A stretch of DNA of 64,000 bases from contig OX597821.1 in assembly GCA_951406725.2 (NCBI GenBank), positions 27,838,001 through 27,902,000 on the forward strand. The letters are read 5' to 3'. This stretch comes from Octopus vulgaris. Taxonomy: Eukaryota. Positions 2,465 to 62,617 of the stretch are shown piece by piece. Below the pieces are notes generated by a model. That model ran no database searches. It was not told the DNA's origin and saw nothing but the letters and a program-made list of their open reading frames with translations. Numbering within the stretch: position 1 is the first letter of the stretch; the number at the start of each line of letters is the position of its first letter. The translations under genes and the position numbers were made by a program.

Positions 2465-2926
2465 CTAGGATTATGAGGTAATAATTCAGCGCAAGTTCGT
2501 TCCAGTCGGTCAAACCATCTATGCGAATGTGTACCCCCAAAGAACTTGAGCAGATGTACAAAAGATACAAAAGATAGGCTCGTCTACAGCATGACAGCAC
2601 AAGAACTCGAACAGACGGAACGACCCTGAATAAACTCCAAGAACTTTAGAGAATGGAACTGATGTTACCAGCAACATGTAGTTCGGATCTAGCTACCCCG
2701 TATTATTACTTATTTCGGTCTACACTCGCGACGATGTATCAACCGAAAGGAGTTGGCAGCTTCAGTGAATGAAATGTTCACCATGGAAGGCAAGTCCTGG
2801 CATGAGCGTGGGATTCAGACGATGCCATACGGTGGCCTCAACTAGAAATGGTTCGCTGCTTTTGTTGTAACTCAACGAATAAAGCAAATAATTTACCAAC
2901 ATATTGCAAGGCTTTTGATACACCAC
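2465..2926 (+). mobile_element. Degraded mariner fragment
   Basis: gattatgaggtaataattcagcgcaagttcgttccagtcggtcaaaccatc translates to DYEVIIQRKFVPVGQTI (mariner EFVPxGQTVN region); TIR-like end before (TA)n. Confidence 0.45.
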
Positions 2927-2927
2927 C

Positions 2928-3008
<81 letters not shown>

Positions 3009-3271
3009 TAATAATGAAGAAATAAATAGTATAGTTATCCACTTTATACAGCCCAACAAATTAGAGCTCCAATGGAGCTTCAGGAGTATATAAAAATTAG
3101 AAGGTTAGGAATAATTTCAAAGGTCTCTGAAAATATTCAAATTATCGAAATTCTCCACAGTATACAATATAAAATATACATATAATTAAGATTTTAATTA
3201 CATCATCAGCATGAAGTATATGATTAAACTAAATTGTTTTTTTTTAATTCTCAAACCTCTCATATCGATTT

Positions 3272-3370
3272 AAATCTTAACTCTGATAAGTGAAGTATAC
3301 ATAATTGCTATGGTTGGATTTAGCTCGCCCATATCAACCTATATCTTCTCGAAACGGCAGTAAGGATTCG
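3272..3370 (+). ncRNA. Degenerate type-I hammerhead-like motif with long stem II
   Basis: CTGATAA (3283-3289), gtgaagtata...tatatcttctc, GAAAC-GGCA-GTA (3351-3362); core has a G-to-A change and stem I is weak. Confidence 0.45.
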
Positions 3371-3775: not shown

Positions 3776-4841
3776 TCTGTAATTTATAGCTAATATTTAT
3801 AATCACCTAAATATGGGAGTTCTGCTAGAATATAGGCTAGTGCTATATTTATCATCAGGGATTCTCGCAAATGCCTAGAAGCACTCGTGTTTATATGACT
3901 AGTCTGTAATCGATGCTGAGTCTGAAAATCACGTGACTTCAATCTTCTGTGGCCTTGTCAACGGCTGCAGCCCGCGTATAGTGATAACAGCGACCTCCAG
4001 TAATCTCCCGTAATAGAATGTCAGTGTCTGTTGATGCACTGGTGGCCCGAATAACCAGTGGACATATTAAATTCAATTGCACGAGATGCAGTGTTAATAC
4101 CAAAGAATAATATTTATATCTACACAAATAAAACATATACATGTACAGTAAATATACGAATATAATAAATATAATATATTAAAGAATAACAATGAAATAT
4201 TTCATATTTTTATAATTATCTGCTGATTGATACTTCTCATAGTTTAACCATTAAATGGAACTGTGACACTTCTGAAGCTTGAATATGCGAATAAAGAGTG
4301 TAGAATATTTTCCTTCAAGGTAGTTAACAAACTAAATGTTTAAATGTATATAAACTAAATAACTGGAGACGAAGAAGAACATTGGAGTTAGAACCGCGGG
4401 TTAAAATTATTGTTACGGGGAAGAGGCAAAAACAGACTATTGAATATCAAAATGAAATAATTTAGACGGCAAATTGTATACAGGTCATCCAAGATTAGAT
4501 TCGACATAAATAGATGTGGCAAACTCAAAGTATATTGAAAATGGACTGATGTATAGAATAATTAAATTCTAAAGAAGGAAGTGACATAGATTTATGTGAC
4601 GAACCATCTTCACATACCGTAAAGGTTATGTGTGTGTTCGTGCTGCAGCTGACATATTAAATGTATAGTTCTGCTAGTGTATATGTTGAGCAGGGAAGGA
4701 CTAGCTCTACTATTTCTCTCCCTGCTCCTCTCTCGACTTCTCTTTGTGTGTGTGTGTATATATATCAGTTGAATATGGTACTTAAGTTAAAGGCATCAGA
4801 ATTTCGTATGGTATTATCCATATAATTCAAAATGGGGTGAT

Positions 4842-4891
4842 TATAATCAAAATAAGCAACAAGGAAATCCTTGTTGCTTATTTTGATTATA
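4842..4891. repeat. Perfect 24-bp-arm hairpin with 2-nt loop
   Basis: tataatcaaaataagcaacaagga AA tccttgttgcttattttgattata. Confidence 0.9.
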
Positions 4892-4894
4892 TAA

Positions 4895-4930
<36 letters not shown>

Positions 4931-4931
<1 letters not shown>

Positions 4932-5227
4932 GCGGCGCAATGGCCCAGTAGTTAGAGCAGCGGACTCGTGGTTGTAGGATCGCGGTTTCGATTCTCAGAC
5001 CGGGAGTTGTGTGTGTTTATTGAGCGAAAACACCTAAAGCTCCACAAGGCTCCAGCAGGGGGTGGTGGAGATCCCTGCTGTACCCTTTCACCCCAACTTT
5101 CCCTCACTCTTTCTTCTGTTGGCCTGCTCACTTAGCCAGCGGGGTGGCGTCATTTGAAGGCTAAAACAATGCGAAGCGCATTGTGACCAGCGATGTGTAG
5201 CAACATCTGATGACCTGGTCGGTCACG
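4931..5227 (+). mobile_element. tRNA-derived SINE, family A, full length
   Basis: A-box-like tggcccagtag and B-box-like ggtttcgattc head; homologous copies at 29623, 53290 and 62316; lies between (TG)n and (TA)n. Confidence 0.85.
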
Positions 5228-5272
<45 letters not shown>

Positions 5273-5577
5273 ATATGATTTACCTTATTAAACAGAGTTC
5301 TTCAAATTCATTCATTCCTATTTATGTAAGTGGAGGAGATTAGATGTTAAACTAGATTATAGTTTTTATTAATCATGTTGCTATACAATTCGTTTCATAC
5401 AGAAAGACAGAGATAATCATAATTGAATATCTGAGTTGTCAGAAAGTACTCGTCGGTAGCTTGGATAAAAACTAAAAAAAAACGTTAGAAGTACATAGGT
5501 TTGGTGTTATTAATCACGTTATAACGTGTTTTTATTCTTGGAGTCGTGTATATTTTAAACATGACTAAGAAATATAA

Positions 5578-6166
5578 TGATAAATCTCAGAGCGAGATTT
5601 ACCTATCATCAGCGTGTGACAATCATAGTTGTCGACGAGAATTCAGTTTCCCTCACAAATACATATACTTTTTCCAGTGTCGATTGACACTGATATTGAA
5701 AAAGTGAAATCAAACAATGATAAATCTCAGAGCGAGTTATAAACAGTAGCGGTAACACATCGTGACGCATATTTGCAATTTGAATATGGCTAACCCCTAA
5801 GGGTGGATGCTACTGTAGTTTGTAGCCCCAGGAAGATATCTCCTCCAGCTGGCTATAGACACACTATCTGTGCCCTATCAGTATTTGTGAAGGGAAGTCA
5901 TCCTTCCCGTCTTCAACTTATGATTCACACGGACTCGAGTTTCAACTATGATTGTCACACGCTGATGATAGGTAAACACCTTGAAACTCGAGTCCGTGTG
6001 TATCATAAGTTGAAGACGGGAAGGATGACTTCCCTTCACAAATACTGATAGGGCACAGATAGTGTGTCTATAGCCAGCTGGAGGAGATATCTTCCTGGGG
6101 CTACAAACTACAGTAGCATCCACCCTTAGGGGTTAGCCATATTCAAATGGCAAATATGCGTCACGA
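5578..6166. mobile_element. Non-autonomous PLE-like fold-back insertion with 12-bp TSD and 187-bp inverted arms
   Basis: TSD taagaaatataa at 5566-5577 and 6167-6178; arms 5759-5945 / 5981-6167 with 2 mismatches. Confidence 0.85.
5956..6000 (+). ncRNA. Minimal type-I hammerhead ribozyme
   Basis: stem I cacacg/cgtgtg; core CTGATGA 5962-5968; stem II aggt-aaac-acct; GAAA 5983-5986; stem III with palindromic TCGA loop; GTC triplet, predicted cut after 5994. Confidence 0.85.
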
Positions 6167-7399
6167 TAAGAAATATAAATTGGGTGCTAATATATATAAT
6201 GATATTGAAATATTAAACGCTGACATTCTCTCTATGGGTTCCTGTATATGTGCTTATCTAAACTTATGTAAAAGAAGTAAAATAACTGGTGAGCCTGTAT
6301 TATGTTAGGATAGGAAATACATATAAAGAAGTACAGAATTTTCAAATGCAAAAAAATGTCATTACGACTTAATAAATAATTAGAAAAAATGCTTGATAGT
6401 AATCACTAATAATTTCAGGCTTATAAAATTTATAATTAAATTATTTATTGTAAATAATAGATCTTCTATTCATAGAAAAAATGCGTATAATATTTCGCAA
6501 TTTATTATCTAGTCAGAGTATAGAAAAGTTATAAGAAGGTTTTGGAGTAGATACTAAAGGTTAAAAGTAAAATTGAAGATGAGTGGGAATTTAATTACGT
6601 TAGCAGCAGCTAAACGTATATAATTCTAGAGAGCGGTATAAAAAAGTTTTTGTTTTTAGTAAATATCAAAAAAATTATTATTTATATTATTAATATAATT
6701 GTAGAGAAATTTATCACACAAAACTGGTGTAGGAGAGATAATGATGAATTGGAAAAAAAAACGATCGTACATATGTTTTTTTTAAAATAAGAAATAAATT
6801 GGTTGACATCAGATATACATGAATATGTACAATCAAATTTTTGTTTTACATACATAGGTTTATGTGTATACATACCGGTACAGCCAGATGTACATATCCA
6901 CACGTTTGTTAGTAGATAAAAAAGCGCATACAAATGAATACTTACGTAAATATACATACATATACTAACATATACAAACAACAATATTTACACATACAGA
7001 ACTTAATGTACGTACGAATACATGCATACCTACCAATATCCTGCTATATACCTTTTATACATACAATACGCACACATATTTACACTTATGATGGTAAATT
7101 AAGGCTTATATAGCGGCCTAAGGGCATATATGCCCATGTAAATGTACATACGTACATATAGACATTATAAAAATCCTACAAAAAATATCAAAAAGATTTA
7201 TTTATGTGATTAGTGTATATTGTAACTGGACATTTAAGTATATATTATATGTATACAAAAGAAGTGCGCATTTATCGTTTCATGCGACTACATTTAATTG
7301 AACAATGCAAACATTACATCAATTTAAAATGTAGAGCAACCTTCAGTTACATAAGAATATAGAATTCAGTTAAATTCGAAGGACTCATTGGTGTAATTT

Positions 7400-15544: not shown

Positions 15545-15940
15545 CTCAGGGCATCCTTTCAGATCACTACGCCATATGCCCGTGGGCAATTATGGAATGA
15601 ATTTTAGGGCTTATGAATATCTAATATTATCCTGGCCTTCCTGAATACGGGTTCCAATATGCCACTCATATAAGCACTCGGTCTGCTTAGGAGGTTGCTG
15701 TGTCCTAGTATATGTGTTGCTTCTTTTAGTTTTCGAATTTTCCAATTGTGTTCTCTGTCACTAATTTTAACTTCATCACACATGAGGAGGTGATCTCCAT
15801 TTCTCCACGTTTGATCAGCTATACCCGATTTATCAATATCTCCTCGTGTCACAGCTTTGCTCTGTTCATCTATCCTTGTTTTGAGGGTGGCAACATTTTC
15901 ACCTTTGTATAACCTACCACAGCTGCATGGTATCAGCAAG
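15545..15940 (-). mobile_element. Penelope-like element 3' fragment: GIY-YIG endonuclease plus start of terminal repeat
   Basis: LIPCSCGRLYKGE..LKTRIDEQ..SGIAD..RKLKEA; sequence atatgcccgtgggcaattatgga shared with 18045-18067. Confidence 0.85.
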
Positions 15941-16015
15941 TATAAAAGAAAAAATATCTTGCATCTTTTAGTCCAGTATCAGCAAGTATAAAAGAAAAAA
16001 TATCTTGCATCTTTT
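15930..16015. repeat. 40-bp tandem duplication at the PLE junction
   Basis: gtatcagcaagtataaaagaaaaaatatcttgcatctttt at 15930-15969 and 15976-16015. Confidence 0.9.
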
Positions 16016-16532: not shown

Positions 16533-17785
16533 CTTAGGTTGGACAAGTATTCATGTAATGGAAACGCCTTAAAATTTCAAACAATTTTATTTTAATATGC
16601 GGTAGAACCGCCTTTGGCAGTAATTACAGCTCGCATTCTACGAGGTATGGACTCGTATAAAGTCTGAATTGTTTCCAAGGGAATTTTTGTCGATCCTTCA
16701 GCTAAAACAGTCCCCAGTTGTAGTGATTATGGCGAGGATATCGACTCCTTGTTTTTCTAAAATGTAAGTATAAATTTTCAACAATATTGAGATCTGGGGA
16801 CTGTGGTCGCTAGATAAGATGTTCAACTTCACTAGAATATTCCTTGTGCCATTCAGTAACAACTTTAGCTGTGTGAATTGGTGCATTATCATCCTGAAGG
16901 ATTGCGTTTCCCTCCGAAAATAGTCCCGCAACCAAAGGAAGAATTTGATCAGATAAAATGCTTAAATAGTCTTGACCATTAATTCTGCCATGAAGGTCCG
17001 GCGGATTTCCAGCTATAGCCCCCACCCCGATCATCACAGATCCTCCTCCATGTTTAACAGCTGGAAGAAGGCAATCTGGGTCATATGCTTTTTGGGCTGT
17101 TTCCACACATGTATATTTGGTCCGTAGTAGGAAATAAAGTAAAGGATGACTCATCCGAGAAAATAACATTCTTCCACTGCTTAGAGATCAATTCTATAGG
17201 TTTTTACTCCACTCTAAATGCTTTGCAACGTTTGTTTTTGAAAGTAGTGGGTTTCTGATTGCAGACCTCCCGTAAAATCCAGCTTCGTGTAACTCCCGGC
17301 GAACATTTTTTTGTGGAAACTCGGTTCTTGAGGTGGTGATTAAGCTCTGCAGTAATTTTCAGAGCTGTACTTTTGTGAGCCTTTCTAACAATTTGCGTAA
17401 GAGTCCGATGGTCCATATGTGAAAGTTTTGGTTTTGCATCTAGAATTTTGCTTCGACGAGATTTTCCCTCTCTCTCAGAAACTGTCATTACTTTCGAGAC
17501 AATACTTCTTGATACACCAAGTATTTCGGCTGCTTTCATTACGCTAGCATCTGCCATACGAGCCCCAACAATTTGACATCTTTGAAAGTCCGATATATTT
17601 GTTATTTTAATGAAGTCTAATTACCTTCTTCTGGTGATATCTGAAAAGAAACGGAAATTTTAGCAAAACATCTTACGCAACACTAATAATGAATAAAAAC
17701 AACCATAAAAAATAAACTTTTGACGGTTTTATAGATATTTCAAAATCATGATGCTGGGTGTTTCCATTATTTTGTCCAAACTCTG
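16533..17785 (-). mobile_element. Tc1-family DNA transposon, near full length, inactive
   Basis: TIR cagagtttggacaaaataatggaaacac matches the left end; TA flanks; encodes a frameshifted transposase. Confidence 0.9.
16592..17607 (-). pseudogene. Tc1 transposase pseudogene
   Basis: FQRCQIVGARMAD..AAEILGVSRSIV (HTH), VKHGGGSVMI, LQDDNAPIHTA, C-terminal PRRMRAVITAKGGSTAY*; several frameshifts. Confidence 0.9.
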
Positions 17786-29622: not shown

Positions 29623-29804
29623 CACGTGACCGACCAGACCATCAGATGGTGTTACACATCGCTGGTCACAATGCGTTCGCATTCTTTTTGCCTTCGAATG
29701 ACGCCACCCCGCTGGTTAAGCGAGCAGTCCAACAGAAGAAAGAGTGTGAGAAAGTTGTGGTGAAAGAGTACAGCAGGGATCACCACTGGAGGCCATTGCG
29801 CCTT
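29623..29804 (-). mobile_element. SINE family A, internally deleted copy
   Basis: tail homologous to 5075-5227 joined directly to the ggcgcaatggcc head. Confidence 0.8.
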
Positions 29805-38714: not shown

Positions 38715-39994
38715 ACCCAATTCAACGGATTTCGCCGCTAAAAGCCACTTGATGCGACCTTCAGGTATCAGTCTGCCGCCCAGAGTTTCGGTGTGGGGTC
38801 GTACAACCACCTGGTACGCCTTTGTTTTGCAGCACTTCTCCCCTGATCGTCGGTTTTTTCGATGGATGAAACGAAGGAACGGCGTGATTCCGTGAAATTC
38901 TGTTTTCTGCTGCGGAAACCGGCGAACGAATGAGTTGTCAAGTTTCAGACAGCGTACAATGATGTTGCCATTAGCAAAACACAAGTTTACAAGTGGTTTT
39001 CGCGCTTTGAAAATGGTTCCTTGTAGCTTGAAGACCAACCTCGTTCAGGATGACTGTCGACCACCAGAACGAATGAAAACATCATGAAAATTCGTGAACT
39101 GATGTTGGAGGACACTCGCCGAAATATTGATGAATTTGTTGATATGGCTGGTGTTATATGGAGCTTCTGCCAATAAATATTGAGCGAGTGAATGAAGAGC
39201 GTTGTGAATGAAAAGTGTTGCAGCATAATTTGAGCATTGTTTGCTCACGGAAGATTAAAACACTCATGACGGAATGCGTATCGCGAACTGAAAGAACAGT
39301 TGGAAGTTGATCCAGATCTTCTTTTGATGGTCATCACTGGTGATGAAAGCTGGTGCTATGTCTACGACTCGGAGACGTAGCAGCAATGAAGTCAATGAAA
39401 GCATTCAAAGTCACCATACCCACCAAAAACGTGTGAAGTGAAGTCAAATGTCATGTACATCCTGGTTTGTTTCAACGATCCGAAAGGAAATGTCCACGCA
39501 CAATTTGTTCCGCCCGGTCAAACACTTAACCATATATTTTACTTGCTAATTCCAAAGTGTTTGCGAGATGCAGTGCGACGAAAACGCCCCGACCAGTGGC
39601 AAAAGGGAGAGTGGTGGTTTTCTCACAGCAATGAGCCTGCGCACACCACCTTGAGTGTGAGACAGGTTTATTGACCAAAAATGGAATGACACCACTTAGT
39701 CACCCTCTCCTTTTCACCTGATCTTGCACCCTGCGACTGTTTTAGTTTCCTCGAAAGAAAAGAGTCCCTAATAGAAAAGGTTTTACAGATATGGAGGAGG
39801 TGAAGAAAAAATGGGTGATATCAAAAGGTATCCCTTCGCAAGAGTTCGAGGACTGCTTCGAACAGTGGGGAACTCCTCTGGACCGGCACATTGCTTGAAA
39901 AGGAGAAGACTTTAAAGGTGATGAAAATGTAAACATATAAAGCTATGTGCATTAAATAATATTGCAAAATTCCGGTTTCTTTTGGGCACCCCTG
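38715..39994 (+). mobile_element. mariner transposon, near full length, inactive
   Basis: transposase remnants as below; right TIR-like end ...ttttgggcacccctg|TA; left end not resolved in the A/T tract. Confidence 0.85.
38862..39940 (+). pseudogene. mariner transposase pseudogene
   Basis: MDETKERRDSVKFCF..SKTQVYKWFSRF..LEDQPRSG, VITGDESWCYVYD, FVPPGQT, LRDAVRRKRPDQW, SPDLAPCD; multiple stops. Confidence 0.9.
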
Positions 39995-53289: not shown

Positions 53290-53596
53290 GACCGTGATCA
53301 CCGTGACCGACCAGGCTATCAGATGTTGCTACACATCGCTGGTCACAATGCGCTTTGCATTGTTTTAGCCCTCAAGTGACGCCACCCCGCTGGCTAAGCG
53401 ATCAGGCCAACAGAAGAAAGAGTAAGAGAAATTTGTGGCGAAAGAGTACAGCAGGGATCGCCAAAACTCCCTGCCGGGGCCTCGTGGAGCTTTAGGAGTT
53501 TTTGCTCAATAAACACTCACAACGCTCGGCTGGGAATCGAAACCACGATCCTACAACCACGAGTCCGCTGCCCTAACCATTAGCCATTGCGCCTCC
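53290..53596 (-). mobile_element. SINE family A, full length
   Basis: reverse-complement homologue of 4931-5227. Confidence 0.85.
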
Positions 53597-53929
53597 TACA
53601 TGGATATATGCTTCACTAAAATACATAAATTGCGAAGTATTCCAGCAAATATTAATAGATGATATTTATTCATATTATTTATTAATAGTAGTTGATATAG
53701 TAGAAATATCATCTAATGGTAGATATTAGTATTACAATTGCCTAGTAATAAAACTCTATTAAAGCTATTAAATAGAACTGAATATATAATGTCGAGAAAA
53801 ATAGAAAACTTCCTTGTTGTATCCTAAAAAAGGATGACTCTTCTAATCTCAGTTGTATACGGTAATGAAAACGTATACACCACGACCATATTGCCATCGT
53901 TACATAACTAACACCCGTAAATATCTAAT

Positions 53930-55175
53930 AAATGTGTCTCTGAAACCTTATTGGCTTTCTTGGAGATGATTTTCGGCGACGGTTAGAACAAGTCTGTTGA
54001 GAATTAATCTTGCTAGAACCTTTCCTGCAGTGGAAAACAGGCTGCTGCCCCAGTGTAATAGTGACAGCATCGCGGAGAACTTGTGACAGCTTACCATGTT
54101 CTCGGCATGCAACGAGTATCACGTGGAGTATATTATGTAGGACAGAACCACTATGCTTCGATATCTCTTGTGGTATACCATCAACTCCAGCTGCCTTTCT
54201 AAACTTCAGCATGCCAATGGCAACTGTGGTCTCTTCCGGGGTTGGAGGCTCATCTAGTTCTATTCTGACTGTCTGCTGCCGGAGGTAGAGGATTTTATTT
54301 TCCTGGACAACATGGTTTGCACTTAACAGTGCCTGAAATTCTACAGAAAGCGGATGGGGATGGATGTTGTTTCTGTGAGAATCTCCTCACTGCGGATGGG
54401 ACTGCGGACTTGAAGTGTTGGGCCGTAAACAGCCTTGTGATATTCTCCAGTGTCTACCCATTGATGGATTCTTGGTGGGGTGTTAGTCCACCACTCATTC
54501 TGAACATCACAAAATTTGCGCTGCAGAAATATTCAGGCTTGGCGAAAGGCCGCTTTCTTCTCTGGGCAGGATATTTGTTCCAGGTGTGCTTGGTGGGCAG
54601 AACTCTTCTTCTTTAGTAATTCCTGGATCAGTACCTCGTGTTCGTCAAGCCAATCCTTGTTCTTTTTCTTCGTAAACACAAGTATTTCTGCAGAGATATG
54701 TGCGATGGTGGTTTTCAGTTGTCCCCATAGGATTTCTGGAGAGTGGTCGGAGGGGCAATTGGGGTGATCAAGTTTTGCTTGTAGAACAACCTGAAAGCCT
54801 ACTTTCACTTCGTCTAGTTGCAGACTACTAGTTTTTATTTTCCTGCTGACCGGTCTTCTCTTTTTTGGTTTGGGCTTGAAGTGAGGTTTGAGTTTGCAAC
54901 AGACGAGGCGAGTACCAGTATGGCATTCTGTGCTAGGCATCACTCTGTTGTGCATGACGTCAGATTGGTCTAGTTGACGCACTAGAGGTGCCAGTGTTTT
55001 GATCCGGGATACATCCGGGTTGTTTCAGGTTGCATCCAAGTTGCTGGAATATGGTTCTGGTGATGGCGAGCTGATTTTAAGCGCCCGATATCGTTGCAGT
55101 TCCCAACCCCGTGTTATTCGAAAACTTCTTTCCAGGTCTCCGGATTTCAGCCCAATCTGTTATTGAAAACTCCTA
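53930..55175 (-). mobile_element. RTE-clade LINE fragment (APE C-terminus, tether, RT start)
   Basis: HGVGNCND, TRMYPGSKHWH, MPSTECHTGTRLVC, KKNKDWLDE, KAAGVDGIPQEI..LRDAVTITL; frameshifts. Confidence 0.85.
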
Positions 55176-62315: not shown

Positions 62316-62617
62316 GGAGGCACATGGCCTAGTGGTTAGAGCCGCCGACTCACGGTCGAGGCATCGCGGGTTCGAATCTCAGACCGGGTGATGTGTGTGT
62401 TTATGAGCGAAAACACCTAAGCTCCACGCGGCTCGGCAGAAGGTAATAGCGAACTTCTGCAGACTCTTTCGCCACAAATTTCTCTCACTCTTTCCTTCTG
62501 CATCTTGCAGCTCACCTGCGACGGACCGGCGTCCCGTCCAGTTGGGGAACCTATACGCTAAGAAACCGGGAAACCGGCGCTTATAAGCCAGGCATGGCTC
62601 GAGAAGGAACAAACAAA
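62316..62617 (+). mobile_element. SINE with family-A head and a different tail
   Basis: head to ctcactctttc matches 4931-5115; tail cctgcgacggaccggcgtcccgtccag..gaaaccgg..aacaaacaa differs. Confidence 0.8.

What the first reader, a model, noticed from the sequence alone, without database searches (positions are those of the whole stretch)
5566..6178. Complete hammerhead ribozyme embedded in a young 187-bp fold-back insertion with a 12-bp TSD
Seen: arms 5759-5945 and 5981-6167 differ at only 2 positions. The loop plus the start of the right arm spell a full minimal type-I hammerhead (cacacg CTGATGA t-aggt-aaac-acct-t GAAAC TCGA GTC^cgtgtg), and the cassette is flanked by taagaaatataa on both sides. 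Established: Penelope-like elements carry minimal type-I hammerheads with short palindromic stem III in their terminal repeats and often insert with inverted ends. Inference: a recent, non-coding, ribozyme-bearing retro-insertion. In a read-through transcript the long hairpin would sequester the ribozyme's 3' half, so self-cleavage and dsRNA formation would be mutually exclusive folds.
Basis: partly seen in the sequence, partly recalled or inferred. Interest (0 to 1): 0.8.

Follow-up and report, generated by a model that had tools for sequence, protein, structure and literature searches.

The report
Retrozyme inserted Penelope-style, head to head
This 600-base hairpin-shaped insert is a young-looking copy of a very abundant repeat, likely a 352-base non-coding RNA unit carrying a hammerhead-ribozyme motif (a retrozyme), and its shape suggests it was pasted in by the enzyme of a Penelope-like jumping gene, a known kind of element whose own hairpin is predicted to keep this ribozyme copy switched off.

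Summary
In detail: 187-bp arms with 2 mismatches, an intact type-I hammerhead motif (5956-6000) and a 12-bp duplication at both ends. They hold a second, inverted 5' half of the ribozyme and a 21-nt copy of 5716-5736. Read on the minus strand, 5945->5598 is 348 nt of a circularly permuted, strongly self-paired 352-nt unit (z about -7). Public runs hold thousands of related contigs, with the same ribozyme junction, other fold-backs and copy ends at about 5716 and 5759-5762, where this insert's two ends sit, 43 nt apart. That matches the Penelope-like 'tail' and head-to-head inversion. Best reading: a non-LTR retrozyme (non-autonomous Penelope-like unit), likely copied from uncut multimer or circle by two primed cDNAs joined at a 3-nt microhomology. 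The hairpin outweighs the ribozyme fold by over 30 kcal/mol, so it is an off state, not a switch. Cleavage, circles, the empty site and the mobilising enzyme are untested. This scan noted Penelope fold-backs before in other genomes. New family of a known kind.

The parts
5566..5577 (.). Left copy of target-site duplication (last 2 nt shared with the element end)
   Evidence: Exact 12-mer only here and at 6167; flanks 27% GC against 42% in the cassette
5576..5596 (-). Outer 3' end of the left copy: 21-nt exact copy of 5716-5736, the distal end of the 'tail'
   Evidence: blastn 21 of 21; other copies end before 5716 (X5, 12 contigs, AT-rich mixed flanks) and 5713 (X16, 1 contig)
5581..5601 (+). 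Snap-back junction: 5581-5588 pairs with 5594-5601 (8 Watson-Crick pairs); accounts for the odd A5597 and gives a 4-nt microhomology to ribozyme loop 2; 213 nt of the unit are skipped here
   Evidence: Hairpin listed; junction printed; mechanism inferred
5598..5631 (-). Segment A': 5' half of the hammerhead (stem I 5' strand, CUGAUGA, stem II 5' strand), cut 4 nt short
   Evidence: 34 of 34 identical to 5943-5976 inverted; family depth starts in bin 5588-5611
5632..5715 (-). Segment C-rest (84 nt): part of the unit that lies 5' of the ribozyme and pairs with B to extend stem I into a rod
   Evidence: 23 bp between 5634-5662 and 5881-5911 at mean pair probability 0.87-1.0; covered in 4 of 4 runs
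5716..5758 (-). 43-nt one-sided 'tail' between the two copy ends
   Evidence: Distance 5759-5716; ends seen in other copies at 5713-5716 and 5759-5762
5759..5945 (-). Left arm B': inverted copy that starts in the ribozyme 3' half and runs 14 nt past the scissile bond
5943..5945 (.). CAA microhomology at the head-to-head junction
   Evidence: Belongs both to the left arm end and to the natural start of segment A
5943..6012 (+). Type-I hammerhead motif with extended stem I; core 5956-6000; predicted cut after C5994; U.U mismatch at the base of stem II; palindromic ACUCGAGU helix III
5981..6167 (+). Right arm B: ends at the proximal copy end (equivalent of 5759)
   Evidence: an X4 contig's match also stops at 5759 and 3 X16 contigs run into (TA)n before 5762
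6167..6178 (.). Right copy of target-site duplication (first nt shared with the arm end)

Best explanation
The insert is one head-to-head copy of an abundant repeat whose unit is likely a 352-nt non-coding, hammerhead-bearing RNA (a non-LTR retrozyme, i.e. a non-autonomous Penelope-like unit), and it was likely integrated by a Penelope-like reverse transcriptase/GIY-YIG endonuclease acting in trans. Shown by sequence: unit order A (ribozyme 5' half) - B - tail - C-rest - A; two copy ends 43 nt apart; both copies run across the scissile bond; a 3-nt microhomology at the inversion; a 9-12-bp duplication of AT-rich target. Inferred: the target was nicked on both strands about 12 nt apart; one 3' end primed cDNA at the proximal site (5759/6167) and copied 225 nt to the base of ribozyme stem I; the other primed at the distal site (5716) and copied more than one unit, losing 213 nt at a snap-back junction (during integration or by a later deletion); the two cDNA ends annealed at CAA. 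Because both cDNAs cross the cut site, the template was uncut multimer or a religated circle, not the cleaved linear monomer. In source tandem loci the ribozyme would cut mainly as a dimer through the palindromic helix III. In this copy it is predicted to be inert: no second whole motif in cis, and the long hairpin buries its 3' half.
For: Anatomy. Family: 3296, 2793 and 2867 contigs laid in three DNA or unlabelled runs of three organisms and 485 in a guessed RNA run; summed depth jumps from 4-15 (5564-5587) to over 10,000 in those three runs at 5588-5611. The 4 nt predicted to close the ribozyme were found between 5945 and 5598 in X16, with variants in X2, X5 and X16 (3 of 4 runs in the rows shown). 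One X16 contig covers 5597-5695 at the same depth (366) as the 5943->5597 joint, and another covers 5697-5788 end to end at depth 441. Other fold-back joints occur at many places (for example 5818/5872, 5818/5887, 5823/5914, 5836/5894; 5919->5965 with 5 shared letters). A second subfamily keeps the core and swaps the first stem II pair from A-U to G-C (loose ends behind 5943 in X2 and X4, read by eye). Circular fold -114 kcal/mol, z -6.6, 0 of 100 shuffles as low; linear z -7.2 against -1.95 for B alone, -0.49 for tail plus C-rest, 0.05 and -0.74 for two controls. Unconstrained cofold of two copies forms the 8-bp intermolecular helix III with both cores open (-43.9 against 2 x -17.3). Literature: same architecture in PLE insertions (PMC3846280, PMC8557442), two RT start sites and both-strand cleavage (PMC11167929), a ribozyme of the same build in a 350-bp axolotl retrozyme (PMC7229834).
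Against: No whole tandem array or circle was seen: the runs are short contigs and only 32 of 9554 pieces and 15 of 31 joints were shown. The 'goes back' joints by themselves prove only the A-B link. The tail-to-C-rest link is bridged by 19 letters on the short side, under the tool's 31-letter standard. Two contigs (X4 403 nt, X5 298 nt) match 5597-5705 and then run on in other sequence, which could be a longer element sharing C-rest. The tail is 43 nt, slightly above the published 30-40. Rfam score is below the gathering threshold. No empty site, no read across this locus's own junctions and no partner PLE were found. X16 is only guessed to be RNA.
Confidence: 0.68

Rival explanations
1. The insert is an ordinary 5'-truncated, inverted end piece (pLTR) of an autonomous Penelope-like element; C-rest is its 3' UTR and the apparent 352-nt unit comes from a template jump at this locus.
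For: Same architecture as published PLE insertions (PMC3846280, PMC8557442). C-rest pairing with B would also fit a 3' UTR. X4 and X5 contigs leave the window sequence at 5705. A decayed GIY-YIG-like frame of PLE type lies at 15607-15978.
Against: An X16 contig at depth 441 runs 5697-5788 without gaps across the tail end; coverage is continuous over 5684-5731 in 4 of 4 runs; loose ends before 5716 are mixed AT-rich flank (agreement 0.54), not one ORF consensus. The ATG in the ribozyme core opens only 27 codons and the four frames of the cassette that were scanned hit no Pfam family. No similarity to the 15.6-kb remnant.
Confidence: 0.22
2. The fold-back arose after insertion, by breakage or replication template switching inside a tandem retrozyme copy, not by twin priming.
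For: The left junction looks like snap-back synthesis plus microhomology, a known signature of end-joining repair (recalled). Inverted repeats can homogenise their arms, which would mimic youth.
Against: Both outer ends sit on family copy ends and abut the same duplicated target; a later rearrangement would not be expected to place the right arm's end at 5759-equivalent next to the TSD. Fold-backs recur across the family.
Confidence: 0.06
3. The palindrome is an assembly or library fold-back artefact.
For: No read or contig across this locus's own junctions was visible; no genome is held.
Against: Arms differ at 2 sites, flanks are not mirrored, the palindrome stops at a family copy end, a TSD brackets it, the loop is natural element sequence, and the left side carries 181 extra nt of the same family.
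Confidence: 0.04

Closest known systems
Metazoan non-LTR retrozymes, especially axolotl Rtz_353 with HHR_Amex2 and mussel 350-390-bp repeats (Cervera and de la Pena 2020, PMC7229834; results part 2-3, discussion and passages read)
   Same: Unit about 350 nt, GC 41%, non-coding, strongly self-paired, type-I hammerhead with 2-bp helix III plus tetraloop and a U.U mismatch at the base of helix II, TSD longer than 4 bp, high copy number.
   Different: Here the copy is head-to-head with a one-sided tail rather than a head-to-tail array; no sequence comparison with those families was made; circles and cleavage untested.
Inverted insertion units of endonuclease-bearing Penelope-like elements, e.g. 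Pen2a_Av (Arkhipova 2013, PMC3846280; Craig 2021, PMC8557442; passages read)
   Same: Inverted copy about 37 nt shorter at the head, overlap at the junction, 8-10-bp TSD, tail on one side only, hammerhead in the repeat, AT-rich or (TA)n targets.
   Different: No ORF between or beyond the repeats; the unit closes on itself after 352 nt; tail 43 nt; junction overlap 3 nt rather than 15.
Poseidon PAc of Anolis carolinensis in vitro (Frangieh 2024, PMC11167929; parts 1-2 of 4 read)
   Same: Two internal RT start sites that define the tail, both target strands cut and extended, AT-rich target, uncut RNA as template.
   Different: PAc is autonomous, with its ORF starting at ribozyme stem II; here the frame closes after 27 codons.
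Minimal hammerheads of metazoan PLEs (Cervera and de la Pena 2014, PMC4209133; parts 1-2 of 4 read)
   Same: Type I, palindromic helix III region, dimer dependence; the paper also notes motif pairs 100-700 bp apart on opposite strands.
   Different: This motif has canonical helix sizes (6-bp helix I with extension, 4-bp helix II, 2-bp helix III) and lacks the G10.1-C11.1 pair directly at the core.

Membership tests
Type-I hammerhead ribozyme | Core CUGANGA ... GAAA ... UH with helices I, II, III, helix I open-ended | tested here: met
   RF00163 whole-model match, 21.9 bits
Type-I hammerhead ribozyme | Rfam gathering score (34 bits) | tested here: not met
   21.9 bits; lowers the automatic label, not the structural reading
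Type-I hammerhead ribozyme | Structure kept by compensatory change in relatives | tested here: inconclusive
   One two-sided change in stem II and wobble-keeping changes in stem II and helix III read by eye from loose ends and joints; no alignment-based count possible
Type-I hammerhead ribozyme | Self-cleavage after C17 | not testable with these tools
   needs in vitro assay
Non-LTR retrozyme | Unit of 150-450 nt, GC under 50%, no ORF, one type-I hammerhead | tested here: met
   352 nt, GC 0.41; no Pfam hit in the four cassette frames scanned
Non-LTR retrozyme | Head-to-tail tandem or circular permutation of the unit | tested here: inconclusive
   Permutation seen in the window and each link seen in contigs, but no two whole units in one record; tail/C-rest link has 19 letters on the short side
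Non-LTR retrozyme | Multi-copy; TSD longer than 4 bp | tested here: met
   about 2800-3300 contigs per DNA or unlabelled run; 9-12-bp TSD
Non-LTR retrozyme | Highly self-paired RNA | tested here: met
   z -6.6 circular, -7.2 linear; prediction only
Non-LTR retrozyme | Expressed as linear and circular RNA | tested here: inconclusive
   485 contigs in a run only guessed to be RNA; contigs cannot show strand or circles
Penelope-like element insertion | Head-to-head inverted 5'-truncated copy next to the direct copy | tested here: met
   other fold-back joints
Penelope-like element insertion | One-sided 30-40-bp tail between two RT start sites | tested here: inconclusive
   Two ends found, 42-43 nt apart, slightly over the published range; few supporting contigs shown
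Autonomous Penelope-like element | RT plus GIY-YIG ORF | tested here: not met
   none in the cassette; it is not filed as autonomous
Autonomous Penelope-like element | Partner PLE with a homologous pLTR in the same genome | not testable with these tools
   no genome held; pattern scans of metagenome and viral contigs empty

The most novel reading that the evidence does not exclude
This insert is a DNA footprint of a Penelope-like RT copying a retrozyme circle or multimer from two start sites at once: the family carries the PLE tail and head-to-head signature on a unit with no ORF, which would give direct structural evidence, in an invertebrate lineage where no retrozyme paper was found, for which enzyme moves animal retrozymes, and a ready RNA substrate to test it.
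Probability: 0.45. Interest if true: 0.55.

Novelty: new member of a known kind. Interest (0 to 1): 0.33.

Why it matters
How animal retrozymes get back into DNA is open: Cervera 2020 calls PLEs a strong candidate and the 2026 preprint (10.64898/2026.07.22.740005) argues from co-occurrence and phylogeny, mostly in vertebrates, leaving mobilisation for future work. A high-copy 352-nt family whose copies end at two sites about 43 nt apart and insert head to head would tie the two together by insertion anatomy, and it can be counted genome-wide. The single locus itself is most likely inert debris. Each part (hammerhead repeat, inverted PLE insertion, tail) is already described.

Tried and rejected
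No whole genome is held for the window, so no genome-wide copy count, TSD survey or empty-site search. Sensitive blastn finds no other family copy in the 64 kb. Exact-pattern scans gave 0 hits in metagenome contigs (2 patterns) and viral contigs; these collections are not expected to hold this animal. The look-up of sequencing runs listed 24 runs, 20 holding part of the stretch, none on record as RNA ('no RNA holder listed'); 4 of the 24 were laid. No empty-site joint and no piece spanning the locus junctions appeared in the rows shown, and the guessed RNA run had no cover at 5516-5587; these blanks are not evidence. The right flank was not part of the laid stretch. Rfam 4-kb scan missed the hammerhead; miRNA-family hits there and reflect the perfect hairpin and were rejected. 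Pfam on 153 frames (8, 145; the filtered list of 176 was cut at about 54.8 kb, and frames under 55 aa were not scanned) found no host exon; only transposase-like fragments and two sub-threshold hits. ARAGORN found no tRNA. Bacterial promoter scan is not meaningful here and was used only for the junction hairpin. A split ribozyme on the minus strand (A' plus the start of B') was rejected: the stem II 3' strand is missing. A 'one lap of a circle' argument from the 348-nt left copy was dropped: the left junction can equally be a later deletion, so circle and multimer cannot be told apart. The riboswitch-like reading of the two folds was rejected on energy. Lunse et al. 2017 on dimer-cleaving PLE hammerheads is not held in the library; only its title was seen in a reference list. 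Literature searches for a cephalopod or octopus retrozyme and for retrozyme plus head-to-head insertion found no such report; the library lacks most subscription papers, Repbase and Dfam were not available, and supplements of the cited papers (bioRxiv ones are closed) were not read and may list this family.

Full report
Observation. The window is AT-rich, microsatellite-rich DNA with transposon debris, evidently an animal genome; the 300-nt SINE-like repeat at 4932-5228 (four copies in the window) resembles octopus repeats by recall only, which I did not test. The inverted repeat is as reported: 5759-5945 and 5981-6167, 187 nt, 2 differences, 35-nt loop. The hammerhead is as reported: stem I 6 bp, CUGAUGA, stem II 4 bp with a U.U mismatch at its base, GAAA, helix III 2 bp around UCGA, GUC ending at 5994. 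Stem I extends by 10 more pairs to 5943/6012. Rfam RF00163 matches the whole model at 21.9 bits, below its gathering score of 34, and was missed in a 4-kb scan. A relaxed descriptor finds only this site in 64 kb, while 7 of 100 resampled windows also give a hit. The 12-mer at 5566 and 6167 is unique to these two places, with chance 2.8e-6 to 1.2e-3.

The 181 nt between the left duplication and the left arm are element sequence. 5598-5631 is an exact inverted copy of 5943-5976, the ribozyme's 5' half, and 5576-5596 is an exact copy of 5716-5736. On the minus strand, 5945->5598 therefore begins in the ribozyme's 3' half and ends in its 5' half, 4 nt short of closing a 352-nt permuted unit: A (ribozyme 5' half), B (187 nt), tail (43 nt), C-rest (84 nt), A again. 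The plus strand carries A+B. The two copies meet head to head at a CAA shared by both.

Family evidence. 24 public runs were listed, 20 holding part of the stretch, from four coded organisms and nine studies. Four were laid on 5300-6000 at 85% likeness: 3296, 2793 and 2867 contigs in two guessed DNA runs and one unlabelled run, and 485 in a guessed RNA run. Summed depth is 4-15 at 5564-5587 and over 10,000 in those three from 5588-5611, peaks at 5804-5827 and falls towards the ribozyme, as 5'-truncated retro-copies would; the tool warns this is no copy number. The four letters that I had predicted would close the ribozyme were found between 5945 and 5598 in X16, with variants in X2, X5 and X16; X4 had none in the rows shown. 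These joints prove the A-B link only. One X16 contig covers 5597-5695 at the depth of the 5943->5597 joint (366), which I read as C-rest, A and B on one contig; another covers 5697-5788 at depth 441, crossing the tail end with 19 letters on the short side, under the tool's 31-letter standard. Against a closed unit, an X4 and an X5 contig match 5597-5705 and then continue in other sequence. Copy ends appear before 5716 (X5, 12 contigs, mixed AT-rich letters), 5713 (X16, 1) and 5762 (X16, 3, into (TA)n), and an X4 contig's match stops at 5759. The window's two outer ends sit on these two sites. Opposite-strand joints at many positions show fold-backs in other copies. A second subfamily keeps CUGAUGA and GAAAC and has GGGU/ACCC for stem II; the pair next to the core is a mismatch in every variant seen (read by eye). 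Only 32 of 9554 pieces, 15 of 31 joints and 24 of 731 loose ends were shown. No empty site and no piece across this locus's junctions were among them.

Folding. The unit folded as a circle gives -114 kcal/mol, z -6.6, 0 of 100 shuffles as low. Linear 5945->5598 gives z -7.2; B alone -1.95, tail plus C-rest -0.49, a SINE control 0.05, a flank control -0.74 (60 shuffles each). The gain comes from B pairing with A, C-rest and tail: stem I continues into a rod of 23 more pairs. So the parts belong together as one RNA, although C-rest/B pairing would also fit a PLE 3' UTR. The monomeric ribozyme fold costs 5.1 kcal/mol against the ensemble (nearest-neighbour model, no magnesium or tertiary contacts); with the left arm present it costs 31-36. 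Helix III is a perfect 8-nt palindrome: +2.9 as a hairpin, -10.7 as a duplex, and two copies cofold into the dimer form unprompted.

Age. 2 differences in 242 duplicated nt, and 12 of 12 in the TSD. At 5777 nearly all family depth has the right arm's base, so the left arm changed. The arms share many alleles that are minor in the family (for example 5837, 5888, 5889), so both come from one subfamily and probably one template. Arm homogenisation could make it look younger than it is.

Mechanism. Shown: the anatomy above, and that both copies cross the scissile bond (the left by 14 nt). From the literature: PLE insertions have an inverted truncated copy and a one-sided 30-40-bp tail (PMC8557442, passages); Pen2a_Av has an inverted pLTR 37 bp shorter and a 9-bp TSD (PMC3846280, passages); the PAc protein cuts both strands of AT-rich DNA, extends both, starts at two internal sites that bound the tail and uses uncut RNA (PMC11167929, parts 1-2). 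Inferred: staggered nicks about 12 nt apart; one cDNA from the proximal site through B and A; one from the distal site through more than one unit; joining at CAA. The left copy lacks 213 nt; its junction folds back on itself (5581-5588 with 5594-5601), which explains the stray A5597 and supplies 4 nt of homology to ribozyme loop 2. This may be an RT jump or a later deletion, so circle and multimer cannot be separated. The copy is predicted inert as a ribozyme: one whole motif only, buried by the hairpin in any read-through RNA. No host exon was detected, and transcription of the locus was not shown.

Comparison. It works like a PLE insertion and looks like a non-LTR retrozyme: unit size, GC, self-pairing and ribozyme build match axolotl Rtz_353/HHR_Amex2, which cut 22% as monomer and much better as dimer (PMC7229834, results and discussion read). 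It is not an autonomous PLE: no ORF. Tandem arrays, circles and cleavage are not shown, so membership is likely, not proven. The 2026 preprint (parts 1 and 3 of 5 and passages read) already argues that animal retrozymes are non-autonomous PLE derivatives. Searches found no paper on a cephalopod retrozyme or on PLE-type tails in retrozyme copies; the giant squid genome paper lists 235 hammerhead_1 loci without analysis (PMC6962438, passage). Unread supplements and repeat databases may hold the family. Earlier notes of this scan describe Penelope fold-backs with hammerheads in other genomes and call them ordinary; none matched this sequence and none exists for this genome.

Verdict. Real, not an artefact in all likelihood, a new family of a known kind. 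The added value is the permuted unit with PLE-type ends, a lead on how retrozymes are mobilised. Interest 0.33.

Noticed in passing
window 15607-15978 (-): Decayed frame resembling a PLE-type GIY-YIG endonuclease end (CSCG..Y.GE..L..RI.E...). No Pfam hit; atlas hits at 0.95 are unnamed eukaryotic clusters, nearest named one GIY-YIG in 17% of members at 0.92. A LINE-like fragment follows directly, and no hammerhead or similarity to the 352-nt unit was found.
   Followed up: partly
window 4932-5228; 53302-53593; 29624-29786; 62324-62500: SINE-like repeat in four copies, 80-90% alike; resemblance to octopus SINEs is recalled, not tested.
   Followed up: partly
window 5300-5515: The left flank is itself an older, lower-copy repeat: contigs at about 10% divergence and depths of hundreds to thousands.
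   Followed up: no
window 4836-4898: AT-rich near-perfect short hairpin (about 25-bp arms, 3-nt loop) just before the (TG)n and the SINE; source of several weak Rfam hairpin hits.
   Followed up: no
window 16813-17620 (-); 39399-39671 (+); 53928-55024 (-): Fragments that read like Tc1/mariner transposases (weak HTH/PAX hits, PF01359 at E 0.0003) and a LINE ORF2 (by eye, no Pfam hit).
   Followed up: no
loose ends before 5806 and 5808: Subfamilies replace 5783-5808 with different sequence that each still appears to form a small hairpin (read by eye), just upstream of the proximal copy end; a candidate RT recognition element.
   Followed up: no
records 19 (X4) and 26 (X5): Two organisms share a low-depth contig matching 5597-5705 with 11 differences and then other sequence; an orthologous old insertion or a longer parent element.
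   Followed up: no
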